From NCBI GenBank assembly GCA_034780895.1, contig JAUZTB010000083.1, positions 3,932,019-3,996,018 on the forward strand: a DNA stretch of 64,000 nt. The letters are read 5' to 3'. Positions 3,633 to 53,345 of this stretch are shown piece by piece. This stretch comes from Rhynchobatus australiae. Its lineage: Eukaryota. Numbering within the stretch: position 1 is the first letter of the stretch; the number at the start of each line of letters is the position of its first letter. Below the pieces are notes generated by a model. That model was not told the origin of the DNA. It ran no database searches and worked only from the letters and a program-made list of their open reading frames with translations. The position numbers were made by a program, and so were the translations under genes.

Positions 3633-4305
3633 ATAGAACCATAGAACAATACAGGCCCTTCGGCCCACCATGTTGTGCCGTCCATCAAACCACNNNNNNN
3701 NNNNNNNNNNNNNNNNNNNNNNNNNNNNNNNNNNNNNNNNNNNNNNNNNNNNNNNNNNNNNNNNNNNNNNNNNNNNNNNNNNNNNNNNNNNNNACCTCCC
3801 TCTGACATCTCCCCTGAACTTCCCACCCATAACCTTAAAGCCATGCCCTCTTGTCTTGAGCATTGGTGCCGTGGGAAAGAGGCGCTGGCTGTCTACACTA
3901 TCTAATCCTCTCAACATTTTATACACCTCTATCATGTCTCCCCTCATCCTCCACCTCTCCAGTGAGTAAACCCCTAGCACCTTAAGCCTCTCCTCATATT
4001 CCATACCCTCTAATCCAGGCAGCATCCTGGTAAATCTCCATTTTTGGATTGAACTCCATCTGCCACTTGTCTGCCCAGCTCTGCATCCTATCACTATCCC
4101 TCTGTAAGCTCCGACAGCCCTCCACACTAATCACAACACCGCCGATCTTAGTGTCATCTGCAGACTTACTAACCCAGCCTTCCACCCCCTCATCTGAGTC
4201 ATCTATAAATATAACAAAAAGTAGAGGTCCCAGAACCAATCCCTGCAGATACCACTAGTCACAGCCCTCCAATCTGAGGGCACTCCCTCCACCACAACCC
4301 TCTGG
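3633..4305 (-). mobile_element. Young CR1 LINE 3' fragment, internally deleted
   Basis: ORFs [24 protein letters not shown] and [25 protein letters not shown]; tail ATAGAACCATAGAAC. Confidence 0.9.
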
Positions 4306-19061: not shown

Positions 19062-19118
19062 GGTCGCCATGTCAAAACAGGACAGCTTGCAGCCATCAAA
19101 GTTATGGATGTCACAGAG
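19062..19118 (+). CDS. MINK1: MINK1-like kinase exon 3 (GRHVKTGQLAAIKVMDVTE)
   Basis: Pyrimidine tract + CAG acceptor, GAG|GTATGG donor, 57 nt; contains kinase subdomain II AAIK lysine. Confidence 0.95.
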
Positions 19119-22103: not shown

Positions 22104-23040
22104 CATAGTTATACAGAATTGAAACCTATCATACCAACCAACGTGCCTACATAAACTAATCCCATTTGCCTGCATGTGGCCTATATCCCTCTAAACCTTT
22201 CCTATCCATATACCTGTCCAAGTGTGTTTTTTTTTAAACACTGCAGTTGTAGCTGCCTCAATCACTTCCTCTGACAGCTCGTTCCACATACAGACCACCC
22301 TCTTTGTGGGAAACTTGCCCCTCGGATCCCCTTTAAATCTTTCCCCTTTTAAACCTGAGCCCTCCAGGTTTAGACTGCCCTACCCTGCGGAAAAATATTC
22401 CGACTATTTACCCTTATGATTTTATAAACCTTTAAGGTCACTGCTTGGCCACCTTCAATCCAGGGAAAACAGTCCCAGTCTATCCAGTCTTTATTTATTA
22501 CTCAAGCCCTCCAGTCCTGGTAACATCCTTGTGAATCTTTTCTGCACCCTCTCTATCTTACTCACATTCTTCCTGTAGCATGATGACCAGAACTGCACAC
22601 AATATTCCAAGTGTGGTGCATTAACGTTTTGTTGAGCAGATATTGAGTAGAAAGACCAGTAATCATTGAAGTTTAGATCAGAGGTAATACACATACCCTG
22701 TTGACCCTTCTGGAGGTGCATGCCCAGAATTATATGCAGTACTCCAAAATAGGTCTAACGAGAGCTCTATAGGACTACCAAAACTTGTAGTCCTTCGGTT
22801 TGGCCCCTGTGAGATAGAAACTAGCATTTGATGGACCTTAGTTTGCACCCAAGAACTAGCTTTTAGTAATTTATGTGCATGGATTTTTGCATCTCTTTGC
22901 TCTAGCACAACTTCTACATTCCTTGCTTCGGAAAATACCAATCCTCTAATGGATCCAAGGTGGATGACTTGCATTACCCCACATTGAGTTCCTATCTATG
23001 ACAGTTTTGCTTGCTCAGTCTCTCAATGTCAAATTGCAAT
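22104..23040 (-). mobile_element. CR1 LINE fragments (two pieces)
   Basis: [33 protein letters not shown]. Confidence 0.8.
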
Positions 23041-26804: not shown

Positions 26805-27338
26805 ACAACATACAAACGGCTGGAGGAACTCAGCAGGTTGAGCAGCATGTGTGGGAGGAAAGAAACTGTTGATATTTCGGGTCGAAACCCTGCATCAGGA
26901 TTCTCCTCGTACCTCAACTCCATCCTGTCTCCCCTTGTCCAGTTTCCTCCCACCCATATCCGGGACACCTTGCATGGCCTCCTCCATTTGGACAACTTCC
27001 AATTCCCCGGCCCCCACTGCCTCGCCTTCACTATGGACGTCCAGTCTTTATACACCTCTATCCTCCATCAGGAAGGTCTTAAAGCCCTCTGCTTCTTTCT
27101 GCAACAAAGATCCAACCAGTTGTCCTCCACCAACACACTCATCTGCCTGGCTGAACTTGTTCTTCCCCTGAACAACTTCTCTTTTGACTCCTCTCGTTTC
27201 TTTAATGAGTCCCAATGCAGGGTTTCCACCCGAAAGGTCGACAATTTCTTTCCCCCCACAGATGCTGCTTGACCTGCTGAGTNNNNNNNNNNGATTGTTT
27301 GTTGCTCCAGGTCCCAGCATCTGCAGTCTCTTGTGTCT
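26805..27338 (+). mobile_element. Internally deleted Penelope-like element: inverted terminal repeat, RT fragment, terminal repeat
   Basis: SSYLNSILSPLVQ..HIRDT..FTMDVQSLYTSI..EGLKAL..LAELVLPLNNFSFD is a PLE RT segment; flanks are reverse complements. Confidence 0.85.
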
Positions 27339-27339
27339 A

Positions 27340-28310
27340 ACATTGATGGCGCATCTCCAGAACTTTGAGGTGCATGCTGCTCATCAGGACAACAAGGATC
27401 ACTGCTGCCTGGAAGTTTTGTGCTGAAGCCCTGATCTTCAAACACCCTATTCTTGAGACATCCAAAGGCACACTGAAGGCTAGGGTGAATTTCAGCATCA
27501 ACATCTGTCGGCTCCTGAGATATGGGAAGTGATCCAAATTTTTCATGATCTCCTTGTGGCAGGCACCTAAGATATAGGAACAGAATATGGCCATTCGGCC
27601 TATCGAGTCTACTTTGCCATTCAATCATGGCTGATCATTTCTTCAACCGCATTCTCCCACCTTCTCCCTGTGGTCTTTTACTAATCAAGGACCTATCAAC
27701 CTCTGCCTTAAATGCACCCAATGACTTGCCCTCTACTGTGGCAACAAATTCCACATATTCATCACCTCCCTGGCTGAAGAAATTCCTCCTCAACTCAGTT
27801 TTATAGGGATATCTTTTTATTCTGAGGCTGTGCCCTCAGATCCTAGACTCTCTTACTAATTGAAGCATCTTCTCTACGTCCATTCTATCCAGGCCTTTCA
27901 GTATTTGGTAGGTTTCAATGAGGCCTTCCTCTCCTGTTGTGCAGGAGAGTCAGATTGGTAGTGGACCCTTGGCTTGCAGATATTGAGAAAAAGGCCCATC
28001 TTCTCATCTGCTTCACTGAGTCAGCTGAACATGACATAGAGCTCTGGCTCCAAGCACATTACGGGCAAGGGTCATCTACTGAGGTTGGGCGCCCTTAATT
28101 CCGGGAAGGAATCAAGGTAGGTTGAAGAGTTTCCCATTATCCCTGTAGATTAGTTCCATGGCTGCATGAAGCTTGTTGGAAGTGAGATGCAATATTGTGG
28201 GAAACCTTGGGATGGTGATTCAGCAATGCTTGACACCAGTCTGCACCGAGATTATCTCTGTTGTGGACCTGTTGGTTAGGGTCAGGGCTTTACTCATTGG
28301 AGAGAAAGAG
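27340..28310 (-). mobile_element. RTE-clade LINE fragment interrupted by a CR1 tail (27570-27925)
   Basis: TNRSTTEIISVQTGVKH, ELIYRDNGKLFNL, LDHFPYL..DVDAEI..AFGCLKNRVFEDQ. Confidence 0.8.
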
Positions 28311-28311
28311 G

Positions 28312-28693
28312 ATGAGAGGAGACATGATAAAGGTATACAAAATATTAAAGAGGAATAGATAGAGTGGACAGCCAGCGCCTCTTTCCCAGGGCACCAATGC
28401 TCAATACAAGAGGACATGGCTTTAAAGTAATGGGTGAGAAGTTCAAGGAAGATATCCAAGGAAGGTTTTTTACCCAGAGAGTAGTTAGGGCATGGAATGC
28501 GCTGCCTGGGGTGGTGGTGGTGGAGGCAGGTACGTTGGTCAAATTCAAGAGATCGCTAGATTAGCATATGGAGGAATTTAAAATAGAGGAATATGTGGGA
28601 GGAAGGGGTTAGATAGTCTTAGGCAAGGTTTAAAGGTTAGCACAACATTGTGGACTGAAGGGCCTGTATTGTGCTGTACTGTTCTATGTTCTA
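28312..28693 (+). mobile_element. Young CR1 LINE 3' end
   Basis: DSQRLFPRAPMLNTRGHGFKV..FFTQRVVRAWNALP; GTTCTATGTTCT tail; same subfamily as 3633-4040 and 52728-52841. Confidence 0.9.
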
Positions 28694-32539: not shown

Positions 32540-32680
<141 letters not shown>

Positions 32681-34299
32681 TAGTTTTTTTTACACCAAAA
32701 TTCTTTGCAGTACCCTTCAAACAAAAGATAATTATGAACATTTCAAAATAACGCAAGGACTCGAGCTGAGTTGGCATTGGAGGCTTAAAGTCTTAAAATG
32801 TTGATTCTAAGAAGTTTGAAGTGGGCTGCATGATTGTATGAGCTGATTGTTGGTGTGTGTACTTGACAGTTCATCCCATCCAATGTGGCTTCTGACTGCC
32901 ATGTCAATACTTAACTAATTAAAACTGAATGCCTGTACGTAAAACCAAATAGACCCTGAAGATGCCCAACCTCCTGATTTCACTCATTTGGAATAAGGTC
33001 ACCTGGAGTTTATCAATAATAATGTTCAAAAAATTAAGTAAAATGGAATGTTCTATGCTTAATTCTTATTTGATGTCATTGTTTCTCCTGTAATGCTTGT
33101 CTGACTGTTGTTACATTGATGTAAGTGTGTTCCCTATTATTTTTAATGGAAGGAAAATGGGGCAAGAGGGAGGGTTCTGTCAGTTAAAATAACATCTCTA
33201 AGGCAGAGGGAGAGAAACCCACCCAGTTCATTTTCAATATGATCCTAACTTTTAACAGTTGAATTTCATAGCTTATCACTGTTGATTCTGCCTTGATATC
33301 TGTACTGTGGGAGTTTTTGCTTTTGGCTACATGTCAGATTTCAACTGCGATGATTTCCAAATGTATTTCAAGGTATTGATGCGTCATTAAGAATTTTGCA
33401 TCCATGACCCCTCGTATTTAGATTTGTCTATCAATATCAATCACAGCAGCAATTGTCTTTTTTAAAAAGGTCCCAGCTTTATTTAACTATCCAAGGAAGC
33501 TGAGGGAAAATGGAAGGTCAACAAATGTGCTTTTGGCTGTGTACCAGAATGCAGAAATTTGTTTGAAATACTGTGGCAGCGTTTCACAATGTCTGCTGAG
33601 TTCCAGCTGTAGATAAGAACCAGACTGATCAGGCGTTGTCACTGAAAGTTATATTCACTTTTTATTGTAAATTTATGATTATATTGCACACAAATTCCAA
33701 AAGGGCATTGTTCATAAGGTGTTGAATATAACAGTTATCAGTGAAACTTGCAGACAAAAAAGAAACCATTGTGCCTATGTCAGTGCTCCCAGCGATTGTC
33801 CAATTAGTCCTAATCCTCTAGCGTTTTCCCCATAACTCTTAAAAGGCAACATTTTTTGTAAGAGATCCAGTCCCTTTCAGAATGGTACTATTGAATCTGC
33901 TTCCATGCCCTTTTAGGGCAGTGCATTCCAGCACAGACACTCCTCGCCTCTTCCCTGGCTTTTTTCCCCAATGACCTTAAATCTGTGTCCTCTGGATACT
34001 GAATCTCCTCCCTGTAGGAAACAGTTTCTTTCCGTTTGCTCCTTCAGAACCCTTTATAATTTTGAACATGTCTCTACCCTCAATCACCTTTGCTGTAATA
34101 GGGGAAATGGTCCATACTTTACTGTCTCTCCACATGTGGCTCAAGTCTCTGATCCCTGGTAATATTCTTGTAAACCTGCTATTTGTTTTTCTAACGCCTG
34201 GTCCTTTCTGTAGTGTGGCATTTAAGTCTGTGTTCGGTGATCCAGCTGAAACCTATCCATCACCCACGCTGTCCTCCCACTGGTTCCCTGCCCCCACTA

Positions 34300-34655
34300 G
34301 TTCCATCTGCCCTCCCCATCTCCCTCCCTTTATTCCATGCTCCATCTTCCTCTCCCATCATCTTTAGCCCTCTGTAGCCTCCACATCACCTCCCAGCTGC
34401 TGGCACTATTTTCTCTCTCTCCCCCTCCCCATTTATCACCCTTCTCACCTGGATTCATCTATTGCATGCTACCTCTTGCTCCACCCCTTCCTTCCACCTT
34501 TTTATACTGGCTATCTATCTTTCAGTCCAGATGAAGGGTCTCGACCCGAAACGTCGACTGTCCATTTCCCTTCATAGATGTTCCCTGACCCATTGTTCTT
34601 CCAGCTTTTTGTGTGTTGCTCCAGATACCAGCATCTGCAGTCTGTTGTGTCTCAA
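34300..34655 (+). mobile_element. Penelope terminal repeat with hammerhead-like motif (second copy 34951-35312)
   Basis: Pyrimidine-rich leader, then GATGAAGGGTCTCGACCCGAAACGTCGACTG ... CAGCATCTGCAGT. Confidence 0.8.
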
Positions 34656-35518
34656 ATCAATGTTTAAAACATTCATCAAAACTTGTTTTCTTCTGCACAA
34701 GATCAAAATGCTGTGATATATAAAAATTCTCATGCAGCATCTGTGAAGAGAGAAAGTGTTATCTCATTATCTCGTTCCTTCCCTCTGTTTATAAAGCCTC
34801 TGTTTTAAAAGATGTCTAGTTCTGTCACCATCAAAAGGCTATCTGAACCTTGCTCCCCTCCCCAGGTCTGTGTCCGTAAGTTCCCTTTAAAATTGTGCTC
34901 TCTCTCCACATGTAGCTCAAGTCTCTGATCCCTGGTAATATTCTTGTAAACTCCCAGCTACTGGCACTATTTTCCCTCTCTCCCCTCCCCATTTATCACC
35001 CCTCTCACCTGGNNNNNNNNNNNNNNNNNNNNNNNNNNNNNNNNNNNNNNNNNNNNNNNNNNNNNNNNNNNNNNNNNNNNNNNNNNNNNNNNNNNNNNNN
35101 NNNNNNNNNNNNCCATTTATCACCCCTCTCACCTGGATCCATCCTATCACATGCTACCTTTTGCTCCTCCCCTTCCTTCCACCTTTTTATACTGGCTATC
35201 TCCCCTCTATCTTTCAGTCCAGGTGAAGGGTCTTAACCCGAAACATCGACTGTCCATTTCCCATCATTGATGTTGCCTGACTCATTGAGTTCCTCCAGCT
35301 TTTTGTGTGCTGCTCGTTTCTAAAGCCTGATGTCCTTTCTATAATGTGGCACCTAAGTCTGTGTTCGGTGATCCAGCTGAAACCTATCCATCATCCACAC
35401 TCTCCTCCCACTGGTTCCCTGCCCCCACTAGTCCCAGTTTATACTGCTCTTCATTTTTCCTTCCAATTCATGGGGAGAATGAAGGACAAAGAAGAGTGAA
35501 ATATCAAGTTCTTGTTAA

Positions 35519-35830
<312 letters not shown>

Positions 35831-46499: not shown

Positions 46500-46888
46500 A
46501 GCAAATTTACATTTGTCACCTGCCAGCTCTTTCTCCACCCCTTCCCTCCACCTTTGTATACTGGCTATCTCCCCTCTTTCAGTTCAGATGAAGAGTCTCG
46601 ACCCGAGACATCAACTGTCCATTGCCCTCCATTGATGCTGCCTGACCTGCTGAGTTACCCCAGCATTTGTGTATTGCTCTGGATTCCAGTATCTGCAGTC
46701 CCTTGTGTCTCTCTTTATATTTGTTCATGTCAAGCCAGAAAAGACCTTATCAGCGTCCTGATGAAGGGTCTCAACCTGAAATGTCAACTGTCCATTTCCC
46801 TCCATAGATGCTGCCTGACCCGCTGAGTTCCTCCAACATTTTCTGTGTTGCTCCAGGTTTCCAGCATCTGCACTATCTTGTGTTTCCA
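46500..46888 (+). mobile_element. Tandem pair of Penelope terminal repeats
   Basis: Two direct copies (46580-46712, 46755-46888) of hammerhead-like motif + GATGCTGCCTGACC.GCTGAGTT + CATCTGCA. Confidence 0.85.
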
Positions 46889-51914: not shown

Positions 51915-53164
51915 GTGAGTTGTTCACCTGACTTTTCTGAATATAAACCATGTGCAGAATGTACCCTTGGCACTTGGTTTTCTTTTGCTCAGACTACTTA
52001 TTCCTACATCCATTACCTTAACATAGTTCCCACTTAATTTTGCTCTGGTTGTGGGTTGTTGGAAGGGAGATTGAATCTGTGAACTTCATGCTTGGTGCAG
52101 AGTGATTTTGATCCTGAACAATAGCATGTACAACGTTAACAAAAGCAGTCATGCTTAAGGTGTAGCACAATTGAGTGTGAAGTAAATATTTCTGCTCTGA
52201 GGAGAATCCCCTACCTCAACAGTACCCTTGAGTGAGATTATTTTGATGCCTACTTCCATGTTGTATGACTATGTGAAAGGTGGAAGTTATGCTTGTTAGG
52301 AAATGGAACATCACAATTTCTTCCTGCATCTTGGAAAACTAGTTGTTGCTTTTCCCAACCTCTCGTACAAATTCCACACCCTCATGATTAATTCCACTCG
52401 CTCTCCCTTGCTACCCACATAGATCCAAACTGTTTACACTACAGAGCTTTGATACAAAGTGGAGCTTCTAATTCATTATTGTCTCCACTACAAAGACCAC
52501 CAATCCACATTTTGCTTGATTCTTTAGCTCAAAACAAACATGGAGGCGATCTCTTCTGATGAATTGCTTGATAAATACCAGAATAATTTTAATGCATTCA
52601 TTTTTACTGACTCGTTGAAAACCACAGTTGCTGAAATACATGTATCAAAAATGTGATTTTGAAGAGAAATGTCTCTGCTCAATGCATTTATCTTCGTTGT
52701 TTCTTATGTGGTCCTTCTGGCATTAGAGTGGAGGCATTGGAGGGGTGCAGAGGAGATTTACCAAGATGCTGCCTGGATTAGAGCATATGGAATATGAGGA
52801 GAGGCTTAAGGTGCTAGGGCTTTACTCACTGGAGAGGAGGANNNNNNNNNNNNNNNNNNNNNNNNNNNNNNNNNNNNNNNNNNNNNNNNNNNNNNNNNNN
52901 NNNNNNNNNNNNNNNNNNNNNNNNNNNNNNNNNNNNNNNNNAGTTACAGAGAAAGTGCAGTGCAGGCAGACAATAAGGTGCAAGGTCATAACGAGGTAGA
53001 TTGTGAGGTCAAGAGTCCGTCATCGTACTAGGGAACCGTTCAATAGTCTTATAACAGCGGGATAGAAGCTGTCCTTGTGCCTGGCGGTACGTGCTTTCGG
53101 GACCTTTGAACTGAAATGAGGCAGCGCAGCCTTACTGAAGTGGAAAAGCTGAGTACGAAGGGCG

Positions 53165-53345
53165 AAGCAAGAGATTCTGCAGTTGCTGGAACCTGGAGCA
53201 ACACACACAAAATGCTGGAGGAACTCAGCAGATCAGGCAGCATCTGTGGAGGGAAATGAACAGTCGGCGTCTCGGGTCGAGGCCCTTCATCAGGACCGGA
53301 AAGGAAGAGGGCAGAAGCCAGACTAAAGAGGTCCGGGGAGGGGTC
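53165..53345 (-). mobile_element. Penelope terminal repeat
   Basis: Reverse complement of the 34300-34655 family. Confidence 0.85.

What the first reader, a model, noticed from the sequence alone, without database searches (positions are those of the whole stretch)
34523..34560. Minimal type-I hammerhead ribozyme fold in a Penelope terminal repeat
Seen: CAGTC-[CAGATGA]-A-GGGT-CTCG-ACCC-[GAAA]-CGTC-GACTG. This gives stem I CAGTC/GACTG, stem II GGGT/ACCC with a tetraloop, a GAAA box, a loopless palindromic stem III (ACGT) and a GUC site predicting cleavage after 34555. Known: Penelope-like elements carry minimal type-I hammerheads thought to act as dimers, and an extra A after A9 occurs in a natural viroid hammerhead. 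This copy has U4 to A (CAGAUGA), as do copies at 35220 and 46585. Inference: either a subfamily with an attenuated or variant core, or a dead ribozyme. It is sense to the kinase pre-mRNA.
Basis: partly seen in the sequence, partly recalled or inferred. Interest (0 to 1): 0.75.

Follow-up and report, generated by a model that had tools for sequence, protein, structure and literature searches.

The report
Penelope hammerhead subfamily with altered core
This 38-base fold is the known minimal self-cutting "hammerhead" RNA motif of Penelope-type jumping genes, but one normally invariant core letter is changed in this copy and in most related repeat sequence from four related animals, so the motif likely cannot cut and the repeat likely spread without needing it.

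Summary
The fold at 34523-34560 is real and matches the minimal type-I hammerhead of Penelope-like elements (PLEs) in every feature except U4, which is A. One detail is wrong: the 35220 copy reads CAGGUGA, and it lies in a rearranged local duplicate of this locus. U4A is a subfamily trait, not decay of one copy. In contigs of four runs from four organisms, T makes up only 29-32% of depth at 34529, and 219 unaligned contig ends also read CAGATGA. Apart from U4 and one wobble, variation in the motif is CpG decay. It hits the catalytic G12 (25-30%) as hard as loop bases, with no compensatory change. Published mutagenesis finds single CUGA mutants of low activity, and an anole PLE inserts in vitro with a dead hammerhead. 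Best reading: a crippled ribozyme in a successful PLE repeat subfamily, here an inert passenger in an intron of a TNIK/MINK1/MAP4K4-type kinase gene of a cartilaginous fish. No genome was held and no PLE ORF adjoins this copy; cleavage is untested.

The parts
34523..34560 (+). Minimal type-I hammerhead fold with U4A: stem I 34523-27/34556-60, core box 34528-34 (A at 34529), extra A 34535, stem II 34536-47, GAAA 34548-51, palindromic ACGT 34551-54, predicted scissile bond after C34555
   Evidence: Sequence; pattern scan; pair probabilities; carries the majority letter of the laid family at every listed variable site of the motif
34390..34522 (+). Pyrimidine-rich upstream arm of the repeat (pLTR-like, inferred). 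The true 5' boundary was not determined and may lie further upstream
   Evidence: Homologous to 34951-35012/35113-35214 and, from 34467, to 46521-46579; repeat depth from 34440 onward in 4 of 4 runs
34561..34653 (+). 3' tail of the repeat, shared with other hammerhead-bearing repeat families in the window; the element ends near 34653
   Evidence: Loose ends pile up behind 34653 in 4 of 4 runs (544, 521, 719 and 180 contigs); blastn
34898..35436 (+). Rearranged local duplicate of 34122-34621 spanning an N gap; holds a second hammerhead-like copy at 35215-35252 with U4A, A6G and a broken palindrome (ACAT)
   Evidence: Blocks of 87-96% identity in shuffled order; strand-swap pairing check
46516..46711 (+). 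Independent copy of the same long U4A subfamily; motif 46580-46617 with CAGATGA, GAGA box and a stem II mismatch
   Evidence: 81% identity over 192 nt
46753..46886 (+). Short sister copy with the canonical CTGATGA box; closing pair of stem I broken
53164..53345 (-). Sister copy with the canonical CTGATGA box but GAGA for GAAA (motif 53298 to 53261)
26806..27338 (.). PLE reverse-transcriptase fragment (26904-27200, + strand) between an inverted hammerhead-tail copy (26902 to 26806, - strand) and a direct one (27207-27338, + strand): the inverted-repeat layout described for PLE insertions
   Evidence: tblastn E 1.5e-34 to P0001 and 7.8e-17 to P0003; P0003 is an RT plus GIY-YIG protein from Hypanus sabinus; layout in PMC8557442
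1940..2777 (-). Older decayed PLE 3' end: ORF remnant at 2777-2658 upstream of a hammerhead-tail copy (2036 to 1940) on the same strand
   Evidence: tblastn to P0003 residues 244-283, E 0.001 over the window and 1.4e-5 over the region
32651..35557 (+). Host intron (GT..AG, 2907 nt) of a TNIK/MINK1/MAP4K4-type kinase gene, between exons 32540-32650 and 35558-35648; holds the motif in sense
   Evidence: Exon translations, splice sites, Pfam Pkinase, PDB matches to TNIK, MINK1 and MAP4K4

Best explanation
The motif is the hammerhead fold in the terminal repeat of what is likely a Penelope-like retrotransposon, and its U4A change is shared by a large repeat subfamily that likely amplified with a crippled ribozyme, leaving this copy as a likely inert passenger in a kinase intron. 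Shown: the fold; A as the majority letter at core position 4 among related repeat sequence in four organisms; CpG decay across the motif, including G12. Inferred steps: (1) a source element acquired U4A once; (2) PLE reverse transcriptase and endonuclease, in cis or in trans, copied uncut RNA into many sites, because insertion does not need ribozyme cleavage; (3) the copies then decayed neutrally; (4) this copy does not cut the kinase pre-mRNA. Reasons for step 4: a loopless stem III needs a partner, the only same-strand neighbour within the intron (692 nt downstream) has a doubly mutant core, and a private tail change favours a competing helix.
For:: T at 34529 is 31.8, 29.1, 32.5 and 29.0% of depth in 4 of 4 runs. 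With my worst-case twofold correction for k-mer weighting, the non-T share is still 0.51-0.55. In run X3, 219 contig ends that were not aligned to the reference (loose at 34516, agreement 0.64) read on through CAGATGA, which is free of reference bias. In the window, 3 of 3 copies with the long upstream arm have A; of the other 9 copies found at E<=0.02, 8 have T and 1 has C. G12-to-A is 25-30% of depth and G1.1-to-A 16-20%, against 15-21% for the loop G, all at CpG. Pairwise mutagenesis of a type III hammerhead: all single and double mutants of the CUGA turn except the C3-G8 swap showed low activity (PMC9901934, passages). U4C already lowers in vitro activity considerably (PMC3088659). All 56 representative metazoan motifs in Fig. 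S3 of PMC4209133 keep U4. Catalytic hammerhead mutants did not affect insertion by the anole PLE in vitro, and no RNA-seq ends were found at the cut site (PMC11167929). Naiad PLEs proliferate without canonical hammerheads (PMC8557442). Among the 24 loose-end rows shown, 5' ends near the motif cluster at 34523-25, and none lies at the cut site 34556. With 60-90 nt of its own tail, this copy forms stems I and II at only about 0.04 probability; the T at 34572 that strengthens the competing helix is C in 92-94% of family depth.
Against: No cleavage assay exists for this motif. The U4 data come from other hammerheads, and I saw no number for U4A itself. The anole motif cleaves only with its protein, so protein could rescue a weak core. 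Every other core letter, both stems and the palindrome are intact in the family majority. Decay of genomic copies says nothing about selection on source elements. No PLE ORF adjoins any U4A copy in the window, so PLE origin of this subfamily rests on homology of motif and tail. The four other natural copies folded with their tails also disfavour stem I (0.00-0.27), so the misfolding prediction is not special to this copy.
Confidence: 0.72

Rival explanations
1. U4A is a working, attenuated natural core variant: the subfamily's RNA cleaves slowly as a dimer or with help from the PLE protein, and the source elements kept it under selection.
For: All other listed core and stem positions are intact in the family majority. 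Natural core variants with residual activity exist, and U4C supports viroid infectivity despite low in vitro activity (PMC3088659). The anole PLE hammerhead is protein-assisted. PLE minimal hammerheads are slow even with a canonical core.
Against: CUGA-turn single mutants show low activity. No second-site change that might compensate is seen in the family. Covariation across 10 window copies does not exceed shuffles (score reached by 111 of 500). One substitution in one source element followed by amplification explains the data without selection.
Confidence: 0.14
2. The U4A subfamily is a substrate-only hammerhead: in a strand-swapped dimer it supplies the GUC site and the 3' strand of stem I, and a sister RNA with canonical CUGAUGA supplies the enzyme strand and cuts it in trans.
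For: Both alleles sit in the same motif in 4 of 4 runs, about 30% T by depth. In a double hammerhead stems I and III are formed between copies (PMC4209133 Fig. 1 legend; geometry inferred), and this copy keeps all 5 stem I and all 4 stem III pairs for a like partner.
Against: It needs two different transcripts to meet through 9 base pairs. Linkage of the T allele to identical stems was not shown. The canonical-box copies in the window all carry other defects. No positive evidence.
Confidence: 0.06
3. U4A arose by independent decay in these few copies of a family whose consensus is CUGAUGA.
For: 8 of 12 window copies have T; two of the three A copies may be duplicates of one insertion.
Against: A is the majority letter in 4 of 4 runs, and unaligned contig ends read CAGATGA. 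T-to-A is a transversion outside CpG, and the independent 46580 copy shares it together with the upstream arm.
Confidence: 0.04
4. The host has co-opted this copy as an intronic ribozyme or structure that tunes the kinase pre-mRNA.
For: Sense orientation; a second copy 692 nt downstream in the same intron; the 38-mer has kept all four CpGs.
Against: The neighbour that would act as enzyme on this copy has U4A plus A6G, and swapped stem III has a mismatch. Keeping 8 CpG letters that each vary in 11-37% of depth is not rare by chance. Flanking repeat sequence is decayed. Conservation at the orthologous site was not tested.
Confidence: 0.03

Closest known systems
Minimal hammerheads (min-HHR) in the pLTRs of metazoan Penelope-like elements (Cervera and De la Pena 2014, PMC4209133)
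   Same: Type I layout, 5-bp stem I, G10.1-C11.1 pair, extra base between 9 and 10.1, loopless palindromic stem III, NUH site; dispersed single copies; opposite-strand pairs around truncated ORFs.
   Different: A at position 4 as a majority allele, whereas all 56 motifs of Fig. S3 keep U4 (their descriptor required the core; the core variant they report is U3-A8). No cartilaginous fish in their Table S1 or Fig. S3.
Anolis carolinensis Poseidon element PAc and its hammerhead (Frangieh et al. 2024, PMC11167929)
   Same: Vertebrate PLE with a minimal hammerhead; insertion in vitro does not need cleavage.
   Different: PAc has an active, protein-assisted core and engineered dead mutants; here the core change is natural and subfamily-wide, and no intact element was recovered.
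Natural hammerhead core variants (Perreault et al. 2011, PMC3088659: U4C viroid variant, U3-A8, A6C)
   Same: A single departure from the conserved core in an otherwise complete fold.
   Different: U4A is not named in the passages and section I read (term 'U4A': 0 occurrences; Fig. 5 itself not seen); those variants are rare, this one is abundant.
Animal non-LTR retrozymes (Li, Clavereau and Pollet 2026, bioRxiv 10.64898/2026.07.22.740005)
   Same: Non-coding, PLE-pLTR-related repeat bearing a type I hammerhead.
   Different: Retrozymes are head-to-tail arrays with a complete motif in consecutive units; this is a dispersed copy with a rearranged duplicate.

Membership tests
PLE minimal hammerhead (min-HHR, Cervera 2014) | Type I layout with short stem I (4-5 bp) | tested here: met
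   5 of 5 pairs, probability 0.94-1.0 in the 38-mer
PLE minimal hammerhead (min-HHR, Cervera 2014) | Stem II opening with G10.1-C11.1 and an extra base between 9 and 10.1 | tested here: met
   GGGT/ACCC, extra A at 34535; features listed
PLE minimal hammerhead (min-HHR, Cervera 2014) | GAAA box, palindromic 15.2-16.2 without loop 3, NUH site | tested here: met
   GAAA-CG-U-C; 4 of 4 pairs between like copies
PLE minimal hammerhead (min-HHR, Cervera 2014) | CUGANGA core box | tested here: not met
   CAGAUGA here; A is the majority letter in related repeat contigs
PLE minimal hammerhead (min-HHR, Cervera 2014) | Location in the pLTR of a PLE (downstream of an RT-GIY-YIG ORF) | tested here: inconclusive
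   No ORF remnant beside the U4A copies; homologous motif-plus-tail copies adjoin PLE remnants at 26904-27200 and 2777-2658
PLE minimal hammerhead (min-HHR, Cervera 2014) | Covariation and compensatory changes in stems | tested here: inconclusive
   Within the family only CpG decay and one wobble change. Across 10 window copies the stem I closing pair is C-G in 4 and U-A in 4, but the covariation score is reached by 111 of 500 shuffles
PLE minimal hammerhead (min-HHR, Cervera 2014) | Self-cleavage as dimer or multimer | not testable with these tools
   Needs an in vitro assay
Hammerhead ribozyme, consensus core (Perreault 2011) | C3 U4 G5 A6 N7 G8 A9 G12 A13 A14 A15 U16 H17 | tested here: not met
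   12 of 13 positions match; U4 is A
Rfam hammerhead families | Covariance-model match | tested here: not met
   No hammerhead family among matches at E up to 10; no window copy scored either, including those with a canonical box, so the models do not see this minimal form
Non-LTR retrozyme | Tandem array with a complete hammerhead in at least two consecutive units | tested here: not met
   Self-comparison shows dispersed copies and one rearranged duplicate with a doubly mutant core; an N gap at 35013-35112 is unread

The most novel reading that the evidence does not exclude
A dominant Penelope-element subfamily of cartilaginous fishes uses a hammerhead with A at the 'invariant' position 4 that still gets cut in vivo, either because the element's protein rescues the core or because sister RNAs with a canonical core cleave it in trans through a strand-swapped dimer: a natural, genome-scale variant of the hammerhead core.
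Probability: 0.15. Interest if true: 0.65.

Novelty: new variant of a known kind. Interest (0 to 1): 0.3.

Why it matters
What hammerheads do for Penelope-like elements is open: proposals range from processing tandem transcripts to being mere passengers. A subfamily that became abundant with a likely crippled core, beside a sister allele with the canonical core, is a natural paired control. If U4A is dead, it supports in genomes the in vitro result that cleavage is dispensable for insertion. If it cuts, it widens the known hammerhead core. It also shows that core-strict descriptor searches would miss a large part of this repeat family. For the kinase gene itself it probably means nothing.

Tried and rejected
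No whole genome is held for this window, so no copy-by-copy census, subfamily tree or orthologue test could be made. Rfam: no hammerhead match. Exact degenerate-pattern scans for the motif found 0 loci in viral contigs, metagenome contigs and prokaryote genome contigs, as expected for an animal repeat. The look-up of sequencing runs: no RNA holder listed; this is no evidence on expression. Only 4 of the 15 listed runs were laid, all contigs, on 34440-34660 only. The window's RT fragment has no Pfam hit of its own; it was identified through homologues. tblastn found no PLE ORF remnant at E<0.2 in 33700-34530; the best chance-level hits near the other U4A copies were E 0.045 and 0.063. Folding energy as evidence of a real structure: rejected, z between -1.8 and +0.6 for 7 copies. 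Covariation across window copies: not above shuffles. Lunse et al. (RNA Biol 14:1499) is not held; only its title was seen in reference lists. No quantitative U4A value was found: the supplement list of PMC9901934 was seen, the files were not read. Earlier-scan look-ups by sequence and by place returned nothing, nor did one word search. Chance fold: rejected (and membership of a repeat family). Retrozyme: rejected (no tandem array).

Full report
1. Observation. In isolation stems I and II form with probability 0.85-1.0, but the minimum-energy fold also pairs GAUG of the core box with CGUC (0.93-0.95). A descriptor that fixes the core except position 4 hit once in the window and never in 200 Markov simulations (written after the fact). 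Folding energy alone is ordinary, and Rfam has no hammerhead match. One detail is wrong: the copy at 35220 reads CAGGTGA.

2. Setting. The motif lies in sense in a 2907-nt intron (32651-35557) of a kinase gene on the + strand. The upstream exon matches TNIK, MINK1 and MAP4K4 (E 3.5e-19 to 3.8e-17); which paralogue it is was not settled. The only named homologue of a retroelement fragment in the window is from the stingray Hypanus sabinus (71% over 55% of the query), so the animal is likely a cartilaginous fish (inference).

3. The repeat. The motif is part of a dispersed repeat. A model built from 10 window copies found these and 2 more at E<=0.02 (12 of 15 matches listed at E<=2). Position 4 is A in 3, T in 8 and C in 1. 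The three A copies (34523, 35215, 46580) share a pyrimidine-rich upstream arm. The 35215 copy sits in a rearranged duplicate of 34122-34621, so the window holds two or three independent A insertions. None of the 12 copies is free of defects, read by eye.

4. Penelope origin. At 26904-27200 a reverse-transcriptase fragment matches P0001 (E 1.5e-34) and P0003 (E 7.8e-17). P0003 carries a GIY-YIG stretch (Pfam E 8e-4, below the curated cut-off) and P0004 an RVT_1 stretch. The fragment is flanked by an inverted copy and a direct copy of the motif plus tail, the layout described for PLE insertions (PMC8557442, passages). A second, older remnant at 2777-2658 lies upstream of a copy on the same strand. 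No ORF remnant adjoins the U4A copies. Their PLE origin is therefore inferred from homology of motif and tail.

5. Is U4A a subfamily trait? No genome was held, so I laid contigs of 4 of 15 listed runs, from 4 coded organisms, on 34440-34660 at 80% likeness. Between 13,132 and 41,508 contigs were laid per run. At 34529, T made up 31.8, 29.1, 32.5 and 29.0% of depth, and no other letter was listed there. Depth is not a copy number and the query carries A. My worst-case twofold correction for k-mer weighting leaves 0.51-0.55 for non-T (a model, not a measurement). Independent of reference bias, 219 contig ends in run X3 that fall off the alignment at 34516, where this copy has a small deletion, have a consensus that runs on through CAGATGA. 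U4A is therefore carried by a major subfamily. Similar shares in four organisms suggest it amplified before they diverged (inference).

6. Variation within the motif. The other listed variable sites are the eight letters of four CpGs (11-37% of depth) and A-to-G at 34544 (13-17%, a U-A to U-G wobble). G12, the general base, is A in 25-30% of depth and G1.1 in 16-20%, against 15-21% for the loop G. No compensatory double change appears; 18 less-supported rows were not shown. Genomic copies thus decay without regard to catalysis. This copy carries the majority letter at each of these sites. Across 10 window copies the stem I closing pair is C-G in 4 and U-A in 4, but overall covariation does not exceed shuffles (111 of 500).

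7. Does U4A cut? Not testable here. In pairwise mutagenesis of a type III hammerhead all single and double mutants of the CUGA turn except the C3-G8 swap had low activity (PMC9901934, passages). Perreault et al. define U4 as core and note that U4C lowers activity considerably yet supports viroid infectivity (PMC3088659, passages and section 8). All 56 motifs in Fig. S3 of Cervera and De la Pena keep U4 (supplement file 2, parts 1-2 of 3), though their search required the core. Their min-HHR was inactive as a monomer and weak as a dimer (parts 1-2 of 4 of the text). In the anole PLE the hammerhead cleaves only with protein, and dead mutants insert normally in vitro (PMC11167929, parts 1-2 of 4). 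In one search the best-supported 5' loose ends near the motif fall at 34523-25, the start of stem I, and none of the 24 rows shown falls at the cut site. This fits copying of uncut RNA but is only a hint, since 1026 rows were hidden.

8. This copy. In a double hammerhead the neighbour's core would cut this copy (geometry inferred). The neighbour 692 nt downstream has U4A plus A6G and gives 3 of 4 stem III pairs. With its own tail this copy forms the hammerhead stems at about 0.04 probability, because the core box pairs with a tail stretch that includes a private T at 34572 (C in 92-94% of family depth). The four other copies folded also disfavour stem I in context, so this is weak evidence.

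9. Mechanism, committed. A source PLE-type element acquired U4A and likely lost most cleavage. PLE enzymes kept copying its uncut RNA, the subfamily became abundant, and its copies decayed. This one is a passenger in a kinase intron (0.72). Rivals: working attenuated variant (0.14), substrate-only motif cut in trans (0.06), copy-level decay (0.04), host co-option (0.03).

10. Membership and novelty. It is built like a PLE min-HHR but fails the defining core at U4, so I file it as a variant of that kind, not as a member shown to be a ribozyme. The PLE-hammerhead link is known (PMC4209133; review passages in PMC6765202 and PMC6155905). A 2026 preprint reports retrozymes in one chondrichthyan genome (part 1 of 5 and passages). 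The extra base after A9 is supported and by a reference title. Searches for a published U4A or CAGAUGA PLE hammerhead, or for PLE hammerheads in cartilaginous fish, found nothing relevant in the listings. The library is partial. Lunse et al., the paper most likely to hold such variants, could not be read, nor could file 1 of the Cervera supplement or the preprint's supplements. PMC11014351 (passages) was not used. Earlier scan notes report PLE hammerheads in shark and ray genomes as ordinary; they agree with my reading, which was formed before them, and are not evidence.

11. Verdict. Real, known class, with one new twist: an abundant core-altered subfamily that offers a cheap paired test of whether PLE hammerheads matter. 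Interest 0.3; novelty: new variant of a known kind.

Noticed in passing
window 34523-34525 and equivalent positions of other copies (26902, 27207, 46753): Many copies begin at the 5' edge of stem I, about 30 nt upstream of the predicted cut site: 525, 297 and 275 loose ends at 34523, 34524 and 34525 in run X1, with low consensus agreement. The cause of this preferred end is unexplained.
   Followed up: partly
window 34505-34533 (+): A pyrimidine tract ends in CAG at 34523-25, like a 3' splice site at the start of stem I; an intron end maps there in Drosophila virilis Penelope. U4A creates a second CAG five bases on, directly before an ATG. It could be an alternative acceptor in the element or a cryptic one in the host intron.
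   Followed up: no
window 34898-35436 versus 34122-34621: Local duplicate with blocks in shuffled order (34122-75, 34390-621, 34188-305) at 87-96% identity, across an N gap; 24 bases on both sides of the gap are identical, so part may be an assembly overlap.
   Followed up: partly
window 26806-27338: Compact PLE insertion: 300-nt RT fragment between an inverted and a direct hammerhead-tail copy, with the rest of the ORF absent.
   Followed up: partly
window 3846-4025, 22434-22526 (-), 28285-28350, 52766-52840 (+) and others: Several remnants match the N-terminal 60 residues of P0005, a stretch that I recall as the C-terminus of CR1-type LINE ORF2; 33880-34260 (-) looks similar by eye.
   Followed up: no
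protein P0003: A Hypanus sabinus protein named 'divergent protein kinase domain 1C isoform X2' by its source is by sequence a PLE RT plus GIY-YIG, so the name likely comes from a misannotated or exonised element.
   Followed up: no
window 19089-48700 (+): Kinase-domain exons of the TNIK/MINK1/MAP4K4-type gene were located near 19089, 29550, 32540, 35558, 42061, 44913 and 48612.
   Followed up: partly
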